Shown here: one piece after another, positions 35,404 to 36,806 of the stretch
Position numbering within the stretch: the first letter of the stretch is position 1
Layout: the number at the start of each line of letters is the position of its first letter
Origin: Enterobacteria phage phiC600P9
Reading direction: 5' to 3' (one strand)
Sequence record: MZ681930.1
Length of the DNA: 64,000 nucleotides
The notes under the pieces: model-generated
Seen by the model: only the letters and a program-made list of their open reading frames with translations
Told to the model about the DNA's origin: nothing
The model's database searches: none
Translations under genes and position numbers: made by a program

Positions 35404-35479
35404 TGGTCGAGGCAGTAGGGATCGAACCTACGACCCAGGACTTAGAAGGTCCTTGCTCTTCCTTCTGAGCTATGCCTCG
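35404..35479 (-). tRNA. tRNA-Arg (anticodon TCT)
   Basis: Hand-folded cloverleaf: acceptor CGAGGCA/TGCCTCG, anticodon loop CTTCTAA, T-loop GGTTCGATCC, encoded CCA. Confidence 0.85.
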
Positions 35480-35483
35480 TATT

Positions 35484-35558
35484 TGGCGGACGTGATAGGA
35501 TTCGAACCTATAACCAATCGCTTAACAGGCGATCGCTCTGCCATTGAGCTACACATCC
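35484..35558 (-). tRNA. tRNA-Asn (anticodon GTT)
   Basis: Acceptor GGATGTG/CACGTCC, anticodon stem ATCGC/GCGAT with loop CTGTTAA, T-loop TTCGAAT, CCA encoded. Confidence 0.8.
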
Positions 35559-35562
35559 AAAT

Positions 35563-35649
35563 TGGTGGGGAGTGATGGAGTCGAACCACCCGAGTCGCAA
35601 TGACAATGGATTTACAGTCCACACCGCTACCTCTACGGGATAACTCCCC
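35563..35649 (-). tRNA. tRNA-Tyr (anticodon GTA), long variable arm
   Basis: 87 nt; acceptor GGGGAGT/ACTCCCC, anticodon loop CTGTAAA, long variable arm, CCA encoded. Confidence 0.8.
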
Positions 35650-35658
35650 AAATTAATT

Positions 35659-35733
35659 TGGTGGCCCTGGGTGGAATTGAACCACCATCTGGCGATTATG
35701 AGTCGCTTGCTTGAACCTTCCAGCTACAGGGCC
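35659..35733 (-). tRNA. tRNA with anticodon CAT (Met or lysidine-modified Ile)
   Basis: Acceptor GGCCCTG/CAGGGCC, anticodon loop CTCATAA, T-loop TTCAATT, CCA encoded. Confidence 0.75.
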
Positions 35734-35734
35734 T

Positions 35735-35810
35735 TGGTGCTGATTGACGGAATCGAACCGCCGACCTTCTCATTACAAGTGAGTTGCTCTACCTACTGAG
35801 CTAAATCAGC
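35735..35810 (-). tRNA. tRNA-Thr (anticodon TGT)
   Basis: Acceptor GCTGATT/AATCAGC, anticodon loop CTTGTAA, T-loop TTCGATT, CCA encoded. Confidence 0.85.
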
Positions 35811-35815
35811 AAAAC

Positions 35816-35905
35816 TGGCGGAGGCGATAGGATTTGAACCTATGAGTCGCCGGAGCGACTGCCGGTTTTCAAGACCGGTGCATTAAACCACTCTGCCACG
35901 CCTCC
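35816..35905 (-). tRNA. tRNA-Ser (anticodon TGA), long variable arm
   Basis: 90 nt; acceptor GGAGGCG/CGCCTCC, anticodon stem CCGGT/ACCGG with loop CTTGAAA, CCA encoded. Confidence 0.85.
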
Positions 35906-35908
35906 AAA

Positions 35909-35916
35909 TATTTATA
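35909..35916 (-). promoter_or_regulatory. Late promoter motif TATAAATA upstream of tRNA-Ser
   Basis: Exact TATAAATA on the minus strand, 4 nt upstream of the tRNA-Ser 5' end and overlapping the segB-like stop. Confidence 0.35.
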
Positions 35917-36562
35917 TATTGCTAATTTGATTTAGAATTCTTTTTGCTTGAGTATGACTTACGCCAATATGCTTAGCATATTTAGATAATTCACCACGCT
36001 TAGAAAAATCATATAATTTAGAAATTTCTATTCTTCTTTTTCTTTCATCCGCAGAAACTTTTGCTTCGTTTGCTTTTGCTATTTTACGTTTAGCTTCTTG
36101 AGAATGATTTTTACCAGCAAAGCCATTCTTCATTAATCCATTTGAAGACCATCCTTTTAATTTTCCGTTAGAATGTGCCTTTTTAACACCCAATGAAATT
36201 AATTCGCGTTGCTGATCTGTCATAGGATAATTATTTATATGGTCCCATCCACCTTCTCCGCCAAGTTTTAAATTATACACATCTGGTCTATTTAAAAACT
36301 CTTCTGTGACAATATTTTTCTCGGCTTCAAGCATAGATTCTTTATCATCAAAATACTCTAATATTTCTTTAGAGAAATTTTCTATACCATACTTGTCTTG
36401 GGCTCTTTTTAATAATTTACCAGAACCCATATATCCATCATCTAAATTTTCGGTAGAATGCACACCAATATAAATTTTATTATTAATTTTATTTGTTATT
36501 TTATAAAGATAAAAATGCATATCAGTCCCTAATAAAGAACTGAGCGTCTCACGACGAGTCAT
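35912..36562 (-). CDS. segB: GIY-YIG homing endonuclease (SegB-like)
   Basis: 216 aa; GIY-YIG motif YLYKITNKINNKIYIGVHS ... GYMGSG; basic C-terminal DNA-binding region; located between the two tRNA subclusters as T4 segB. Confidence 0.85.
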   Translation of the reverse strand: MTRRETLSSLLGTDMHFYLYKITNKINNKIYIGVHSTENLDDGYMGSGKLLKRAQDKYGIENFSKEILEYFDDKESMLEAEKNIVTEEFLNRPDVYNLKLGGEGGWDHINNYPMTDQQRELISLGVKKAHSNGKLKGWSSNGLMKNGFAGKNHSQEAKRKIAKANEAKVSADERKRRIEISKLYDFSKRGELSKYAKHIGVSHTQAKRILNQISNI

Positions 36563-36566
36563 AAAT

Positions 36567-36640
36567 TGGAGCGGATAATGAGAATCGAACTCACATCATC
36601 AGATTGGAAGTCTGAGGTAATGCCATTATACGATATCCGC
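36567..36640 (-). tRNA. tRNA-Gly (anticodon TCC)
   Basis: Acceptor GCGGATA/TATCCGC, anticodon stem TCAGA/TCTGA with loop CTTCCAA, T-loop TTCGATT, CCA encoded. Confidence 0.85.
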
Positions 36641-36645
36641 AAATT

Positions 36646-36732
36646 TGGTGCGAGAAGTGGGACTCGAACCCACAAGGAAATCATTCCGCAGCATTTTAAG
36701 TGCTGTGCCTTTACCAATTTGACCATTCTCGC
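36646..36732 (-). tRNA. tRNA-Leu (anticodon TAA), long variable arm
   Basis: 87 nt; acceptor GCGAGAA/TTCTCGC, anticodon stem CAGCA/TGCTG with loop CTTAAAA, CCA encoded. Confidence 0.85.
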
Positions 36733-36733
36733 G

Positions 36734-36806
36734 CTGGGAATAAAGGACTCGAACCTTTGCATCCTGGAATCAAAATCCAGTGCCTTACCAACTTGGCTAA
36801 TTCCCA
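36734..36806 (-). tRNA. tRNA-Gln (anticodon TTG)
   Basis: Acceptor TGGGAAT/ATTCCCA, anticodon stem CTGGA/TCCAG with loop TTTTGAT; 3' CCA not encoded. Confidence 0.8.

What the first reader, a model, noticed from the sequence alone, without database searches (positions are those of the whole stretch)
35404..36806. tRNA cluster of nine genes whose composition differs from the T4 set
Hand folding gives, in transcription order, Gln(TTG), Leu(TAA), Gly(TCC), then the segB-like gene, then Ser(TGA), Thr(TGT), a CAT-anticodon tRNA, Tyr(GTA), Asn(GTT) and Arg(TCT). From memory T4 encodes Gln, Leu, Gly, Pro, Ser, Thr, Ile and Arg. Here I found no tRNA-Pro, while tRNA-Tyr and tRNA-Asn are extra insertions between the CAT tRNA and Arg. 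A changed tRNA repertoire suggests adaptation to a different codon demand or to host anticodon nucleases.
Basis: partly seen in the sequence, partly recalled or inferred. Interest (0 to 1): 0.5.

Follow-up and report, generated by a model that had tools for sequence, protein, structure and literature searches.

The report
Known T2/RB-type phage tRNA cluster
The nine tRNA genes are real, but this exact gene set, without tRNA-Pro and with tRNA-Tyr and tRNA-Asn, is a common and already annotated variant of the T4-family tRNA operon, so the finding is correct but ordinary.

Summary
Observation confirmed. ARAGORN and Rfam both find exactly nine minus-strand tRNA genes at 35404-36806: Gln, Leu, Gly, a GIY-YIG endonuclease gene, then Ser, Thr, CAU, Tyr, Asn, Arg. 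There is no tRNA-Pro in the window or in the rest of the matching genome. The window is Enterobacteria phage phiC600P9 (Tequatrovirus), differing by one base.

The same nine-gene set is annotated in RB51 and RB68. The CAU-Tyr-Asn-Arg half is the T2 allele published in 2008. The Tyr-Asn block occurs in 395 phage records.

- Tyr and Asn sit where T4 carries segB, so T4 more likely lost them than this phage gained them.
- The endonuclease gene lies at Gly|Ser, where T4 has tRNA-Pro, not at T4's Ile|Arg site.
- Only its N-terminal half is SegB; the C-terminal half is unrelated. All 55 records with this variant show no T4-type tRNA-Pro.
- The CAU tRNA is tRNA-Ile2-like.
- tRNA-Tyr scores weakly (poor D-stem), but covariation and published T6 experiments argue it is real.

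Codon usage matches T4, so a different codon demand does not explain the changed set. A counter-defence role is published for tRNA-Tyr (Septu, retron-Eco7), but those nucleases cut the variable loop, not the anticodon. Already known; low interest.

The parts
36876..36900 (-). Putative MotA-dependent middle promoter of the tRNA operon: MotA box TGCTTTA at 36900-36894, a 12-nt spacer, then TATTAT at 36881-36876.
   Evidence: The motifs are identical to the T4 sequence upstream of tRNA-Gln. PMC2330249 states that the T4 cluster is transcribed from a middle promoter just upstream. The motif assignment is my inference from the T4 middle-promoter consensus.
36733..36806 (-). tRNA-Gln(UUG), RB-type allele. 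It does not encode a 3' CCA.
   Evidence: ARAGORN; Rfam 67.4 bits. It is 74/74 identical to RB18 and RB68 and 66/74 to T4, T2 and T6. All 8 differences lie in the anticodon arm.
36646..36732 (-). tRNA-Leu(UAA).
   Evidence: ARAGORN; Rfam 59.3 bits. It is 87/87 identical to T4, T2, T6, RB18 and RB68.
36567..36640 (-). tRNA-Gly(UCC).
   Evidence: ARAGORN; Rfam 63.3 bits. It is 73/74 identical to T4.
36522..36543 (-). Hairpin that sequesters the Shine-Dalgarno sequence (AGGGA) of the endonuclease gene, ending 1 nt before the AUG at 36520.
   Evidence: Stem-loop found. An equivalent inhibitory hairpin is described for T4 segB (PMC2330249; PMC2988022). A regulatory function here is inferred.
35912..36520 (-). 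Free-standing GIY-YIG homing endonuclease gene of 202 aa (an upstream in-frame ATG at 36562 would give 216 aa). It is a SegB chimera: the N-terminal catalytic half is T4/T6 SegB and the C-terminal half is of a different type. It occupies the position of tRNA-Pro in T4 and T2.
   Evidence: Pfam GIY-YIG E=6e-6, above the curated cut-off; weak NUMOD3 hit. PHROG 314 'homing endonuclease' E=2e-54. BLASTP gives 83-84% identity over the 117-120 residues that align to T4 and T6 SegB, nearly all differences lying after residue ~95, and no similarity in the remaining C-terminal part. DNA homology to T4 and T6 segB ends at window 36232. It is 61% identical over its full length to the Mineola endonuclease that sits between Gly and Pro.
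35816..35905 (-). tRNA-Ser(UGA), T2-type allele with an encoded CCA.
   Evidence: ARAGORN; Rfam 62.6 bits. It is 90/90 identical to T2 and RB18 and 87/91 to T4, whose gene lacks the CCA.
35735..35810 (-). tRNA-Thr(UGU).
   Evidence: ARAGORN; Rfam 72.9 bits. It is 73/76 identical to T4.
35659..35733 (-). CAU-anticodon tRNA, most likely tRNA-Ile2 (lysidine-modified, reading AUA). T2-type allele.
   Evidence: ARAGORN labels it Met(cat); Rfam 59.9 bits. It is 75/75 identical to T2, RB18 and RB68 and only 47/77 to T4 tRNA-Ile. In the 38 E. coli records listed, which sample the ranking of 5,430 matching records from top to bottom, the best match is annotated tRNA-Ile (29 of the 30 spread rows full-length, 76-82% identity) and never tRNA-Met. 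The sequence has G1-C72, C4-G69, C5-G68 and A73.
35563..35649 (-). tRNA-Tyr(GUA), class II with a long variable arm and a weak D-stem.
   Evidence: ARAGORN; Rfam 30.2 bits against a threshold of 29. It is 87/87 identical to RB18, 86/87 to T2 and 85/87 to T6. Covariation: 90.5% of cells paired, 5 pairs changed on both sides, D-stem only 54% paired. The T6 orthologue is expressed and active against Septu (PMC13096335).
35484..35558 (-). tRNA-Asn(GUU), T2-type allele. In T2L this gene holds the preferred cleavage site of T4 SegB.
   Evidence: ARAGORN; Rfam 74.1 bits. It is 75/75 identical to T2 and RB18 and 63/77 to RB68. The SegB core motif GGTTCGAATCC lies at 35498-35508. The preferred site is reported in PMC2330249.
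35404..35479 (-). tRNA-Arg(UCU), T2-type allele.
   Evidence: ARAGORN; Rfam 65.8 bits. It is 76/76 identical to T2 and 50/80 to T4 and T6.
35035..35385 (-). ORF of 116 aa with unknown function, lying between tRNA-Arg and rnaD. It is present in T2 and RB51 and absent from T4.
   Evidence: ORF list. No Pfam hit. PHROG 3355, unknown function, E=1.5e-52. The T2 homologue is annotated. T4 homology skips this segment.
34919..35035 (-). rnaD (species 2 RNA) homologue.
   Evidence: 105/118 identical to T4 rnaD. Annotated in RB68 and T4.
34774..34912 (-). rnaC (species 1 RNA) homologue. It contains a tRNA-like T-arm motif at 34786-34796.
   Evidence: 136/139 identical to T4 rnaC.
34700..34723 (-). Intrinsic-terminator-like hairpin followed by a T-run, at the end of the operon.
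   Evidence: 10-bp stem with 7 G-C pairs, then TTTTTGG. PMC2330249 says T4 transcription terminates after the species I RNA gene.

Best explanation
This is the tRNA operon of a T-even phage in its 'T2/RB' allelic form. It is one of several mosaic versions of the same locus that circulate among Tequatroviruses.

How the operon is built (inferred by homology with T4, not measured here): it is transcribed from a MotA-type middle promoter upstream of tRNA-Gln. It runs through nine tRNAs, one homing-endonuclease gene, an ORF of unknown function, and the small RNAs rnaD and rnaC, to a terminator.

What the tRNAs do (fit to codon use shown here; benefit inferred): seven of them (Gln, Leu, Gly, Ser, Thr, Ile2, Arg) read A-ending codons that the AT-rich phage uses 1.5 to 6 times more often than E. 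coli does. Tyr and Asn serve two of the three amino acids most over-represented in the phage proteome. tRNA-Tyr also buffers the phage against PtuAB-type nucleases (Septu, retron-Eco7) that destroy host tRNA-Tyr. That role was shown experimentally for the T6 orthologue and for T5 tRNA-Tyr, and is transferred here by near-identity.

Why the set differs from T4: the cause is not a different translational need. It is the footprint of recombination and homing by SegB-family endonucleases.
- In T4, a segB cassette with its own Ile and Arg alleles occupies the place of the T2-type CAU-Tyr-Asn-Arg block. That replacement has been demonstrated in T4 x T2L crosses.
- In this phage the block is intact.
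- Instead, a second SegB variant sits between Gly and Ser, where T4 and T2 have tRNA-Pro. It has the same catalytic half and a different presumed DNA-binding half.
- That this variant caused the loss of tRNA-Pro is an inference.
For: Identity and prior annotation:
- The region is 100% identical to phage phiC600P9, and 57 phage records cover at least 80% of it.
- RB68 and RB51 annotate the same nine tRNAs in the same order. RB18 has the same set plus His.

Mosaic structure:
- T4, T2 and T6 each hold a different combination.
- The window's CAU, Tyr, Asn and Arg genes are 75/75, 86/87, 75/75 and 76/76 identical to T2. The CAU and Arg genes are only about 62% identical to T4's.
- BLAST breakpoints fall at tRNA gene ends.
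- The SegB core motif GGTTCRANTCC occurs 8 times in the window, all inside the cluster, against 0.09 expected.

Published mechanism:
- T2L carries Met(CAU), Tyr, Asn and Arg in place of segB. T4 SegB cuts preferentially in T2L tRNA-Asn and converts about 1250 bp (PMC2330249).

Second endonuclease:
- It matches T4/T6 SegB over the N-terminal half (83-84% over the aligned 117-120 residues; 96-97% at the DNA level), and nothing aligns after the domain boundary.
- All 55 records with this C-terminal type show a single matching place, so none has a T4-type tRNA-Pro.
- Jiaodavirus Mineola has the orthologue between Gly and Pro.

Codon use:
- Phage against the E. coli sample, per 1000 codons: AGA 9.3 vs 1.5, ATA 11.1 vs 2.4, GGA 20.0 vs 6.2, TTA 27.0 vs 10.2, AAT 42.3 vs 13.4, TAT 33.0 vs 14.0.
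- Tyr and Asn are enriched 1.68-fold and 1.56-fold.
- T4 and this phage are indistinguishable over the same genes.

Defence role of tRNA-Tyr: PMC13096335 and PMC11555353.

Operon frame: promoter motifs identical to T4, rnaD and rnaC homologues, and a terminator.
Against: - Nothing here measures expression, aminoacylation or fitness. The functions are carried over from T4, T6 and T5.
- The E. coli codon table is a 50-kb sample of 41 ORFs, and all gene sets come from a simple longest-ORF caller.
- The mutual exclusion of this endonuclease and tRNA-Pro rests on megablast, which would miss a strongly diverged Pro gene. However, ARAGORN finds no Pro in this genome.
- T6 lost Pro and Ser without an endonuclease at that site. 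Pro can therefore be lost by plain deletion, so the endonuclease need not be the cause here.
- Mineola keeps Pro next to the endonuclease.
- The T6 tRNA-Tyr was reported to be cleaved by Septu as well and to work by dosage. A single-copy gene may therefore give only partial protection.
Confidence: 0.85

Rival explanations
1. The changed repertoire is an adaptation to a codon demand that differs from T4's. On this view the phage gained Tyr and Asn because it uses more UAY and AAY codons, and it dropped Pro because it needs fewer CCA codons.
For: Tyr and Asn codons are much more frequent in the phage than in the E. coli sample: TAT 33.0 vs 14.0 and AAT 42.3 vs 13.4 per 1000. Tyr and Asn are the second and third most enriched amino acids. 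The tRNAs therefore do match a phage-versus-host imbalance.
Against: - The imbalance is the same in T4. Over the same gene block, this phage against T4 gives TAT 31.3 vs 32.1, AAT 44.3 vs 43.8, TAC 10.4 vs 9.5 and CCA 17.4 vs 18.0 per 1000. There is no different demand to adapt to.
- CCA and CCT are used about twice as often as in E. coli, yet Pro is the tRNA that was lost.
- RB18 adds His, the amino acid most depleted in the phage relative to E. coli, at 0.65-fold.
- Phages isolated on the same host species carry either set: 395 records hold Tyr-Asn and 440 hold T4-type Pro.
Confidence: 0.1
2. Tyr and Asn (and His in RB18) are kept mainly as counter-defence spare parts against host tRNA nucleases. 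Translation supply is secondary.
For: - Septu PtuAB and retron-Eco7 deplete tRNA-Tyr.
- T6 and T5 tRNA-Tyr genes rescue infection, a T6 deletion of the tRNA-rich region is more sensitive, and T4, which lacks Tyr, cannot escape (PMC13096335; PMC11555353).
- The window's Tyr is 85/87 identical to T6's. Its variable arm is identical to that of a T5-like phage.
- Tyr, Asn and His are three of the four substrates of colicin E5 (Ogawa et al., from my own knowledge). A general hypothesis of this kind is published (PMC10264068).
Against: - No nuclease specific for tRNA-Asn in phage defence turned up in the papers read.
- As I recall the E. coli sequences, the anticodon loops of the window's Tyr and Asn (CUGUAAA and CUGUUAA) are the same as the host's, so there is no sign of evasion by sequence.
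- T6 tRNA-Tyr is itself cleaved by Septu.
- This explains why Tyr is kept. It does not explain why Pro was lost or why the alleles are mosaic.
Confidence: 0.4
3. The Tyr call, and perhaps others, is a pseudo-tRNA, so the functional repertoire is smaller than nine.
For: - Rfam scores Tyr at 30.2 bits, just above the 29-bit threshold.
- The minimum-free-energy fold is not a cloverleaf, with a z-score of -0.9.
- The D-stem has a C.C mismatch.
- The gene is not annotated in MT630408.1.
- The T6 tRNA-Tyr is described as relatively unstable.
Against: - The gene is conserved at 85-87 of 87 nt in T2, T6, RB18 and RB68, and is recognisable in rV5-like, T5-like and Jiaodavirus phages.
- The acceptor, anticodon, variable and T helices are 94-100% paired, with 5 pairs changed on both sides. 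No shuffle out of 500 reaches the observed covariation score.
- The tyrosine identity elements as I recall them (GUA anticodon, A73, long variable arm) are all present in the sequence.
- The T6 orthologue is detected by northern blot and is biologically active.
- The other eight tRNAs score 59-74 bits.
Confidence: 0.05

Closest known systems
tRNA gene region of phages RB51 and RB68 (FJ839693, KM607004), and of RB18, AR1, HY01 and KIT03
   Same: Same nine tRNAs with the same anticodons in the same order. Same endonuclease gene between Gly and Ser, same 116-aa ORF, and rnaD and rnaC. The whole 2.6 kb is 95-97% identical.
   Different: RB68 carries different Asn and Arg alleles (63/77 and 62/79 identical). 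RB18 has an extra tRNA-His and about 190 bp between Asn and Arg.
Phage T2 / T2L tRNA gene region (Brok-Volchanskaya et al. 2008, PMC2330249; AP018813)
   Same: The CAU, Tyr, Asn and Arg genes, the Ser allele and the downstream 116-aa ORF are identical or nearly so: 75/75, 86/87, 75/75, 76/76 and 90/90. There is no endonuclease at the Ile/Arg site.
   Different: T2 keeps tRNA-Pro and has no endonuclease between Gly and Ser. T2 lacks tRNA-Thr and has a 133-aa ORF there instead. That ORF is a stand-alone homologue of the C-terminal domain of the window's endonuclease.
Phage T4 tRNA operon (Gln-Leu-Gly-Pro-Ser-Thr-Ile-segB-Arg-rnaD-rnaC)
   Same: Same genomic position between the e.8 side and trna.2/57B. 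Same strand and same upstream promoter sequence. Same Leu gene, near-identical Gly, Ser and Thr genes, and homologous rnaD, rnaC and terminator.
   Different: The window has no Pro but has Tyr and Asn. Its CAU and Arg genes are different alleles, about 62% identical. Its endonuclease is at Gly|Ser rather than Ile|Arg and has an unrelated C-terminal half. It has an extra 116-aa ORF. Its Gln anticodon arm is replaced.
Phage T6 tRNA-rich region with SegB and tRNA-Tyr (Chihara et al. 2026, PMC13096335)
   Same: tRNA-Tyr is 85/87 identical. The N-terminal half of SegB matches that of T6 SegB (84% over the aligned 120 residues; DNA 96%), including the leader sequence.
   Different: In T6, segB lies directly after Tyr, and the two form the 718-bp unit that amplifies. 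Here the endonuclease is two genes upstream and has another C-terminal domain. T6 lacks Pro, Ser and Asn.

Membership tests
T-even (Tequatrovirus) tRNA operon | Syntenic position and strand: downstream of trna.2/trna.3/57B, and upstream of rnaD, rnaC and the e.8 side. | tested here: met
   The flanks align at 94-97% to T4, T2 and T6. rnaD and rnaC homologues lie at 34774-35035.
T-even (Tequatrovirus) tRNA operon | Shared core tRNAs Gln(UUG), Leu(UAA) and Gly(UCC) at the 5' end and Arg(UCU) at the 3' end. | tested here: met
   ARAGORN calls. Leu is 87/87 identical to T4.
T-even (Tequatrovirus) tRNA operon | Single transcript from a middle promoter, processed into tRNAs. | not testable with these tools
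   Only sequence motifs identical to T4 and a terminator-like hairpin were seen.
T4 tRNA set in the strict sense (the eight T4 species) | Presence of tRNA-Pro(UGG). | tested here: not met
   No Pro in the window or in the rebuilt genome.
T4 tRNA set in the strict sense (the eight T4 species) | T4 alleles of tRNA-Ile(CAU) and tRNA-Arg flanking segB. | tested here: not met
   Only 47/77 and 50/80 identical to T4, but identical to T2.
SegB homing endonuclease (T4 gp SegB) | GIY-YIG catalytic domain closely related to T4 SegB. | tested here: met
   Pfam PF01541 scores 26.8 bits against a cut-off of 22.6. BLASTP aligns 117-120 N-terminal residues to T4 and T6 SegB at 83-84% identity, with nearly all differences after residue ~95.
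SegB homing endonuclease (T4 gp SegB) | C-terminal DNA-binding region homologous to that of T4 SegB. | tested here: not met
   BLASTP finds no alignment beyond residue ~117. DNA homology ends at window 36232.
SegB homing endonuclease (T4 gp SegB) | Insertion site between tRNA-Ile and tRNA-Arg. | tested here: not met
   The gene lies between tRNA-Gly and tRNA-Ser. The T4 site is given in PMC2988022 and in the T4 record.
SegB homing endonuclease (T4 gp SegB) | Cleaves tRNA genes at the T-arm motif and drives its own inheritance. | not testable with these tools
   The motif is present in 7 of the 9 tRNA genes. Activity is unknown.
tRNA-Ile2 (CAU anticodon, lysidine-modified) | CAU anticodon on an elongator body: a 1-72 Watson-Crick pair rather than the initiator C1xA72 mismatch. 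| tested here: met
   The sequence reads GGCCCUG...CAGGGCC-A-CCA, giving G1-C72.
tRNA-Ile2 (CAU anticodon, lysidine-modified) | Closest to host ileX/ileY-type genes rather than to tRNA-Met. | tested here: met
   In all 38 E. coli records listed (8 best rows and 30 rows spread down the ranking of 5,430 matching records), the best match is annotated tRNA-Ile (76-82% identity, full length in 29 of the 30 spread rows). The fetched example has a CAT anticodon.
tRNA-Ile2 (CAU anticodon, lysidine-modified) | TilS determinants C4-G69 and C5-G68 (Ikeuchi et al. 2005, recalled from memory). | tested here: met
   Both pairs are read directly from the sequence. That they are the determinants rests on my memory, not on a tool.
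tRNA-Ile2 (CAU anticodon, lysidine-modified) | C34 is actually converted to lysidine, and the tRNA is charged with Ile. | not testable with these tools
   Needs mass spectrometry or an aminoacylation assay.
Phage counter-defence tRNA-Tyr (T5/T6 type) | Orthology to the experimentally tested T6 and T5 tRNA-Tyr genes. | tested here: met
   85/87 identical to T6. The variable arm is identical to that of a T5-like phage.
Phage counter-defence tRNA-Tyr (T5/T6 type) | Foldable class II cloverleaf with the tyrosine identity elements (GUA anticodon, A73, long variable arm). | tested here: met
   Four of the five helices are supported by covariation; the D-stem is weak. The Rfam score only just passes.
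Phage counter-defence tRNA-Tyr (T5/T6 type) | Rescues infection from PtuAB-type nucleases. | not testable with these tools
   Shown only for T6 and T5.

The most novel reading that the evidence does not exclude
The tRNA repertoire of T-even phages is set mainly by competing SegB-family homing endonucleases. They share one catalytic module but carry different DNA-binding modules, and each erases a different tRNA when it homes. On this reading, the variant in this window has its homing site in or next to tRNA-Pro, and the missing tRNA-Pro is its footprint, just as the missing Tyr and Asn in T4 are the footprint of T4 SegB. By analogy with T6 SegB, it might also drive amplification of nearby counter-defence tRNAs such as Tyr.
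Probability: 0.3. Interest if true: 0.4.

Novelty: already known. Interest (0 to 1): 0.12.

Why it matters
It matters little as a discovery. The locus is a textbook hypervariable region of T-even phages. This exact gene set has been in GenBank since the RB51 and RB68 genomes. The T2-type Tyr-Asn block and its replacement by T4 segB were described in 2008, and a defence function for the T-even tRNA-Tyr was shown in 2026.

The second look is useful in three ways:
- It corrects the reading: T4 lost genes rather than this phage gaining them, the endonuclease is chimeric and sits at another site, and the CAU tRNA is Ile2-like.
- It shows that codon demand cannot explain the difference from T4.
- It flags a testable link between one endonuclease variant and the absence of tRNA-Pro, seen in 55 of 55 records.

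For phage-therapy or host-range work, the presence of tRNA-Tyr predicts better tolerance of Septu and retron-Eco7 hosts than T4 has.

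Tried and rejected
- **Hidden tRNA-Pro.** I looked with ARAGORN and Rfam on the whole window. I also ran ARAGORN on the full genome rebuilt from MT630408.1. None was found.
- **Tyr as a pseudo-tRNA.** The low Rfam score, the non-cloverleaf minimum-free-energy fold and the missing GenBank annotation made this plausible. Conservation, covariation and the T6 experiments reject it.
- **CAU tRNA as elongator or initiator Met.** Rejected by homology to E. coli tRNA-Ile(CAU) genes and by the acceptor-stem features.
- **Different codon demand.** Rejected by comparing codon tables of this phage and T4.
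- **Solved structures related to the endonuclease.** A sequence search of the PDB gave no hit at E <= 1.
- **sigma-70 promoter scan of the cluster.** It gave fewer hits than the shuffles (7 against 10.5 expected) and was not informative. The relevant T4 promoters are MotA-dependent.
- **PrrC/RloC as a relevant test.** Set aside, because these nucleases target tRNA-Lys, which is not in the set.

Full report
**1. The observation**

ARAGORN on the whole 64-kb window returns nine tRNA genes, all on the minus strand and all between 35404 and 36806. In transcription order they are Gln(UUG), Leu(UAA), Gly(UCC), Ser(UGA), Thr(UGU), a CAU tRNA, Tyr(GUA), Asn(GUU) and Arg(UCU). Rfam's tRNA model finds the same nine above its gathering score. 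Eight score 59-74 bits and Tyr scores 30.2 bits against a threshold of 29. A GIY-YIG ORF fills the 661-nt gap between Gly and Ser.

There is no tRNA-Pro in the window. I rebuilt the whole phage genome from the window plus the rest of the matching GenBank record, and ARAGORN again finds only these nine genes.

**2. Where the window comes from, and whether the set is new**

The 2.6 kb around the cluster is 100% identical to Enterobacteria phage phiC600P9 (MT630408.1, genus Tequatrovirus). In all, 1,068 phage records match and 57 cover at least 80% of the query. The window equals record positions 32001-96001, except for one missing A at window 18890.

RB68 and RB51 annotate exactly the same nine tRNAs in the same order, with the same endonuclease gene and with rnaD and rnaC downstream. 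RB18 has the same array plus tRNA-His. The phiC600P9 record itself annotates eight of the nine genes and omits Tyr.

A 166-nt query covering Tyr and Asn is covered at 80% or more in 395 phage records. The T4 tRNA-Pro segment is covered at that level in 440. Both states are common. The variant is already known.

**3. Comparison with T4, T2 and T6**

The four arrangements are as follows.
- T4: Gln-Leu-Gly-Pro-Ser-Thr-Ile | segB | Arg-rnaD-rnaC.
- T2: Gln-Leu-Gly-Pro-Ser-[133-aa ORF]-CAU-Tyr-Asn-Arg-[116-aa ORF].
- T6: Gln-Leu-Gly-Thr-CAU-Tyr | segB | Arg.
- Window: Gln-Leu-Gly | endonuclease | Ser-Thr-CAU-Tyr-Asn-Arg-[116-aa ORF]-rnaD-rnaC.

Gene-by-gene alignment shows that the window's CAU, Tyr, Asn and Arg genes are the T2 alleles (75/75, 86/87, 75/75 and 76/76 identical). 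The T4 and T6 Ile(CAU) and Arg genes are only about 62% identical to them. BLAST breakpoints against T4, T2 and T6 fall at the ends of tRNA genes. The locus is a mosaic of exchangeable modules.

Brok-Volchanskaya et al. (PMC2330249) had already mapped this. T2L, RB1 and RB3 lack segB and carry extra tRNA genes. For T2L these are Met(CAU), Tyr and Asn plus an Arg isoacceptor. T4 SegB cuts best inside the T2L tRNA-Asn gene. In T4 x T2L crosses it replaces about 1250 bp containing Met, Tyr, Asn and Arg.

So Tyr and Asn are not 'extra insertions between the CAU tRNA and Arg'. They occupy the site that a segB cassette fills in T4. The authors consider segB a recent arrival in T4.

**4. The endonuclease gene**

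The likely start is the AUG at 36520 (MHFYLYK...). This is the same N-terminus as T6 SegB, and it is preceded by a hairpin that buries the Shine-Dalgarno sequence. The same device is described for T4 segB.

BLASTP aligns the first 117-120 residues, which hold the GIY-YIG catalytic domain, to T4 and T6 SegB at 83-84% identity. The first ~95 residues are almost identical, and the remaining C-terminal part has no detectable similarity. At the DNA level, homology to T4 and T6 segB (96-97%) includes the 46-nt leader and stops at window 36232. GIY-YIG homing enzymes are modular, with catalytic and DNA-binding domains joined by a linker (PMC2330249 discussion). This is therefore a SegB with a swapped presumed DNA-binding module, and it sits at a different site: Gly|Ser instead of T4's Ile|Arg.

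This C-terminal type occurs in 55 phage records at 95% identity or more. I searched with a query that joined this C-terminal DNA to the T4 tRNA-Pro gene. All 55 records matched only the endonuclease part and had a single matching place, so none has a T4-type tRNA-Pro.

The same search showed that the Klebsiella phage Mineola (Jiaodavirus) has a full-length orthologue, 61% identical, lying between Gly and Pro. Its stop codon overlaps the 5' end of tRNA-Pro. The simplest reading is that this endonuclease belongs to the Gly/Pro junction and that Pro was lost next to it in the RB lineage. This is an inference. T6 lost Pro and Ser without any endonuclease at that site, so Pro is dispensable and can be lost by other routes.

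**5. The individual tRNAs**

The CAU tRNA is labelled Met by ARAGORN. Its best match in all 38 E. coli records listed, which sample the ranking of 5,430 matching records from top to bottom, is annotated tRNA-Ile and never tRNA-Met. Twenty-nine of the 30 spread rows are full-length alignments at 76-82% identity, and the example fetched has a CAT anticodon. The tRNA has G1-C72, so it is not an initiator. It also has C4-G69, C5-G68 and A73, which I recall as TilS and IleRS determinants. It is most likely an AUA-reading tRNA-Ile2, with the same function as T4's tRNA-Ile but a different allele.

tRNA-Tyr is the only doubtful call. It has a low Rfam score, a minimum-free-energy fold that is not a cloverleaf, and a D-stem with a C.C mismatch. 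I aligned seven homologues from T-even, Jiaodavirus, rV5-like and T5-like phages. The acceptor, anticodon, variable and T helices are 94-100% paired, and five pairs change on both sides. No shuffle out of 500 reaches the observed covariation score. Only the D-stem fails, at 54% paired. The GUA anticodon, A73 and long variable arm are all present. The T6 orthologue, 2 nt different, is expressed and biologically active, although it is described as relatively unstable. It is a real gene with an unusual D-arm.

**6. Why this set: codon demand**

I took simple longest-ORF gene sets from the rebuilt phage genome, from 50 kb of T4 and from 50 kb of E. coli K-12. The seven 'T4-like' tRNAs read A-ending codons that the phage uses far more than the host sample does. 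Per 1000 codons: AGA 9.3 vs 1.5, ATA 11.1 vs 2.4, GGA 20.0 vs 6.2, TCA 18.7 vs 5.2, ACA 18.1 vs 5.5, TTA 27.0 vs 10.2 and CAA 22.8 vs 15.5. Tyr and Asn are the second and third most enriched amino acids, at 1.68-fold and 1.56-fold. The tRNAs therefore fit the general phage-versus-host imbalance.

Over the same gene block, however, this phage and T4 have the same codon use: TAT 31.3 vs 32.1, AAT 44.3 vs 43.8 and CCA 17.4 vs 18.0. CCA and CCT are about twice as frequent as in E. coli, yet Pro is the gene that is missing. A 'different codon demand' does not explain the difference from T4.

**7. Why this set: tRNA nucleases**

Septu PtuAB and retron-Eco7 destroy tRNA-Tyr by cutting its variable loop. 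Overexpressed T6 tRNA-Tyr restores plating, and deletion of the T6 tRNA-rich region increases sensitivity. SegB-driven amplification of the Tyr-segB unit gives escape mutants, and T4, which lacks Tyr, cannot escape (PMC13096335). T5 tRNA-Tyr does the same against retron-Eco7 (PMC11555353).

The nuclease is not an anticodon nuclease. In the papers I read I found no defence nuclease specific for tRNA-Asn. The coincidence that Tyr, Asn and (in RB18) His are colicin E5 substrates is already part of a published hypothesis (PMC10264068). The anticodon loops here look host-like, which does not help that hypothesis.

**8. Operon frame**

The sequence upstream of tRNA-Gln carries a MotA box and a -10 element identical to T4's. 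Homologues of rnaD and rnaC follow the 116-aa ORF, at 105/118 and 136/139 identity to T4. A strong terminator-like hairpin ends the unit at 34723-34700. The core SegB recognition motif GGTTCRANTCC occurs eight times in the window against 0.09 expected. All eight are inside this unit, in seven tRNAs and in rnaC.

**9. Verdict**

The feature is a known, widely distributed allele of a well-studied hypervariable locus.

The only mildly new points are these:
- the perfect association of one SegB domain-swap variant with the absence of tRNA-Pro;
- the relic of that variant's C-terminal domain in T2;
- a fully compensated replacement of the tRNA-Gln anticodon arm.

All three are side notes. Interest is low.

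Noticed in passing
window 35912-36520 (-): The 'segB-like' gene is a chimera. Its leader and N-terminal GIY-YIG half match T4 and T6 segB (96-97% at the DNA level), while the C-terminal half is unrelated to T4 SegB. It sits at Gly|Ser rather than T4's Ile|Arg site. All 55 phage records with this C-terminal type show no T4-type tRNA-Pro. Jiaodavirus Mineola has the orthologue (61% aa identity) between Gly and Pro (L014 1961-2623).
   Followed up: partly
L007 3711-4112 (phage T2, between tRNA-Ser and the CAU tRNA): The T2 133-aa ORF that replaces tRNA-Thr belongs to PHROG 16521. It is a stand-alone homologue (about 41% aa identity) of the C-terminal domain of the window's endonuclease. It looks like a relic or split-off DNA-binding module of a homing endonuclease.
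   Followed up: partly
window 36733-36806 (-), tRNA-Gln: This allele differs from the T4, T2 and T6 gene at 8 positions, and all 8 lie in the anticodon arm. Three base pairs are replaced with full compensation (27-43, 28-42 and 30-40), and loop positions 32 and 38 change from C to T. The rest of the gene is identical. The pattern suggests a cassette-like swap of, or selection on, the anticodon arm.
   Followed up: partly
window 35563-35649 (-), tRNA-Tyr: The gene is missing from the GenBank annotation of the identical phage (MT630408.1) and only just passes Rfam. Its D-stem pair 12-24 is C.C and never pairs in seven homologues. Close relatives of this tRNA-Tyr occur in unrelated phage groups (rV5-like 96% identity, T5-like 85%, Jiaodavirus 82%). 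The T5-like copy has an identical variable arm.
   Followed up: yes
window 34786-34796 (-), inside rnaC: The small RNA rnaC contains a perfect tRNA T-arm and SegB core motif (GGTTCAAGTCC). rnaC and rnaD are 136/139 and 105/118 identical to T4, but no Rfam family reports them at gathering threshold.
   Followed up: partly
window 35035-35385 (-): A 116-aa ORF (PHROG 3355, unknown function, no Pfam hit) lies between tRNA-Arg and rnaD. It is shared with T2 and RB51 and absent from T4. It travels with the T2-type tRNA block.
   Followed up: partly
window 18890: The window matches MT630408.1 positions 32001-96001 except for one missing A (AA instead of AAA). The site lies just before a GGGAGCC-CGAA-GGCTCCC hairpin. 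It is a homopolymer-length difference, so the source is a near-identical record or version.
   Followed up: yes
window 35816-35905 (-), and the cluster as a whole: Eight of the nine tRNA genes encode their 3' CCA; only Gln does not. tRNA-Ser encodes CCA here and in T2, whereas the T4 gene lacks it. According to PMC2330249 this shifts the SegB cut site.
   Followed up: partly
L003 3839-3914 in transcription order (phage RB18): RB18 and several close relatives carry an additional tRNA-His(GUG) between Asn and Arg. Histidine is the amino acid most depleted in the phage proteome relative to the E. coli sample (0.65-fold), so codon demand does not explain that gene.
   Followed up: no
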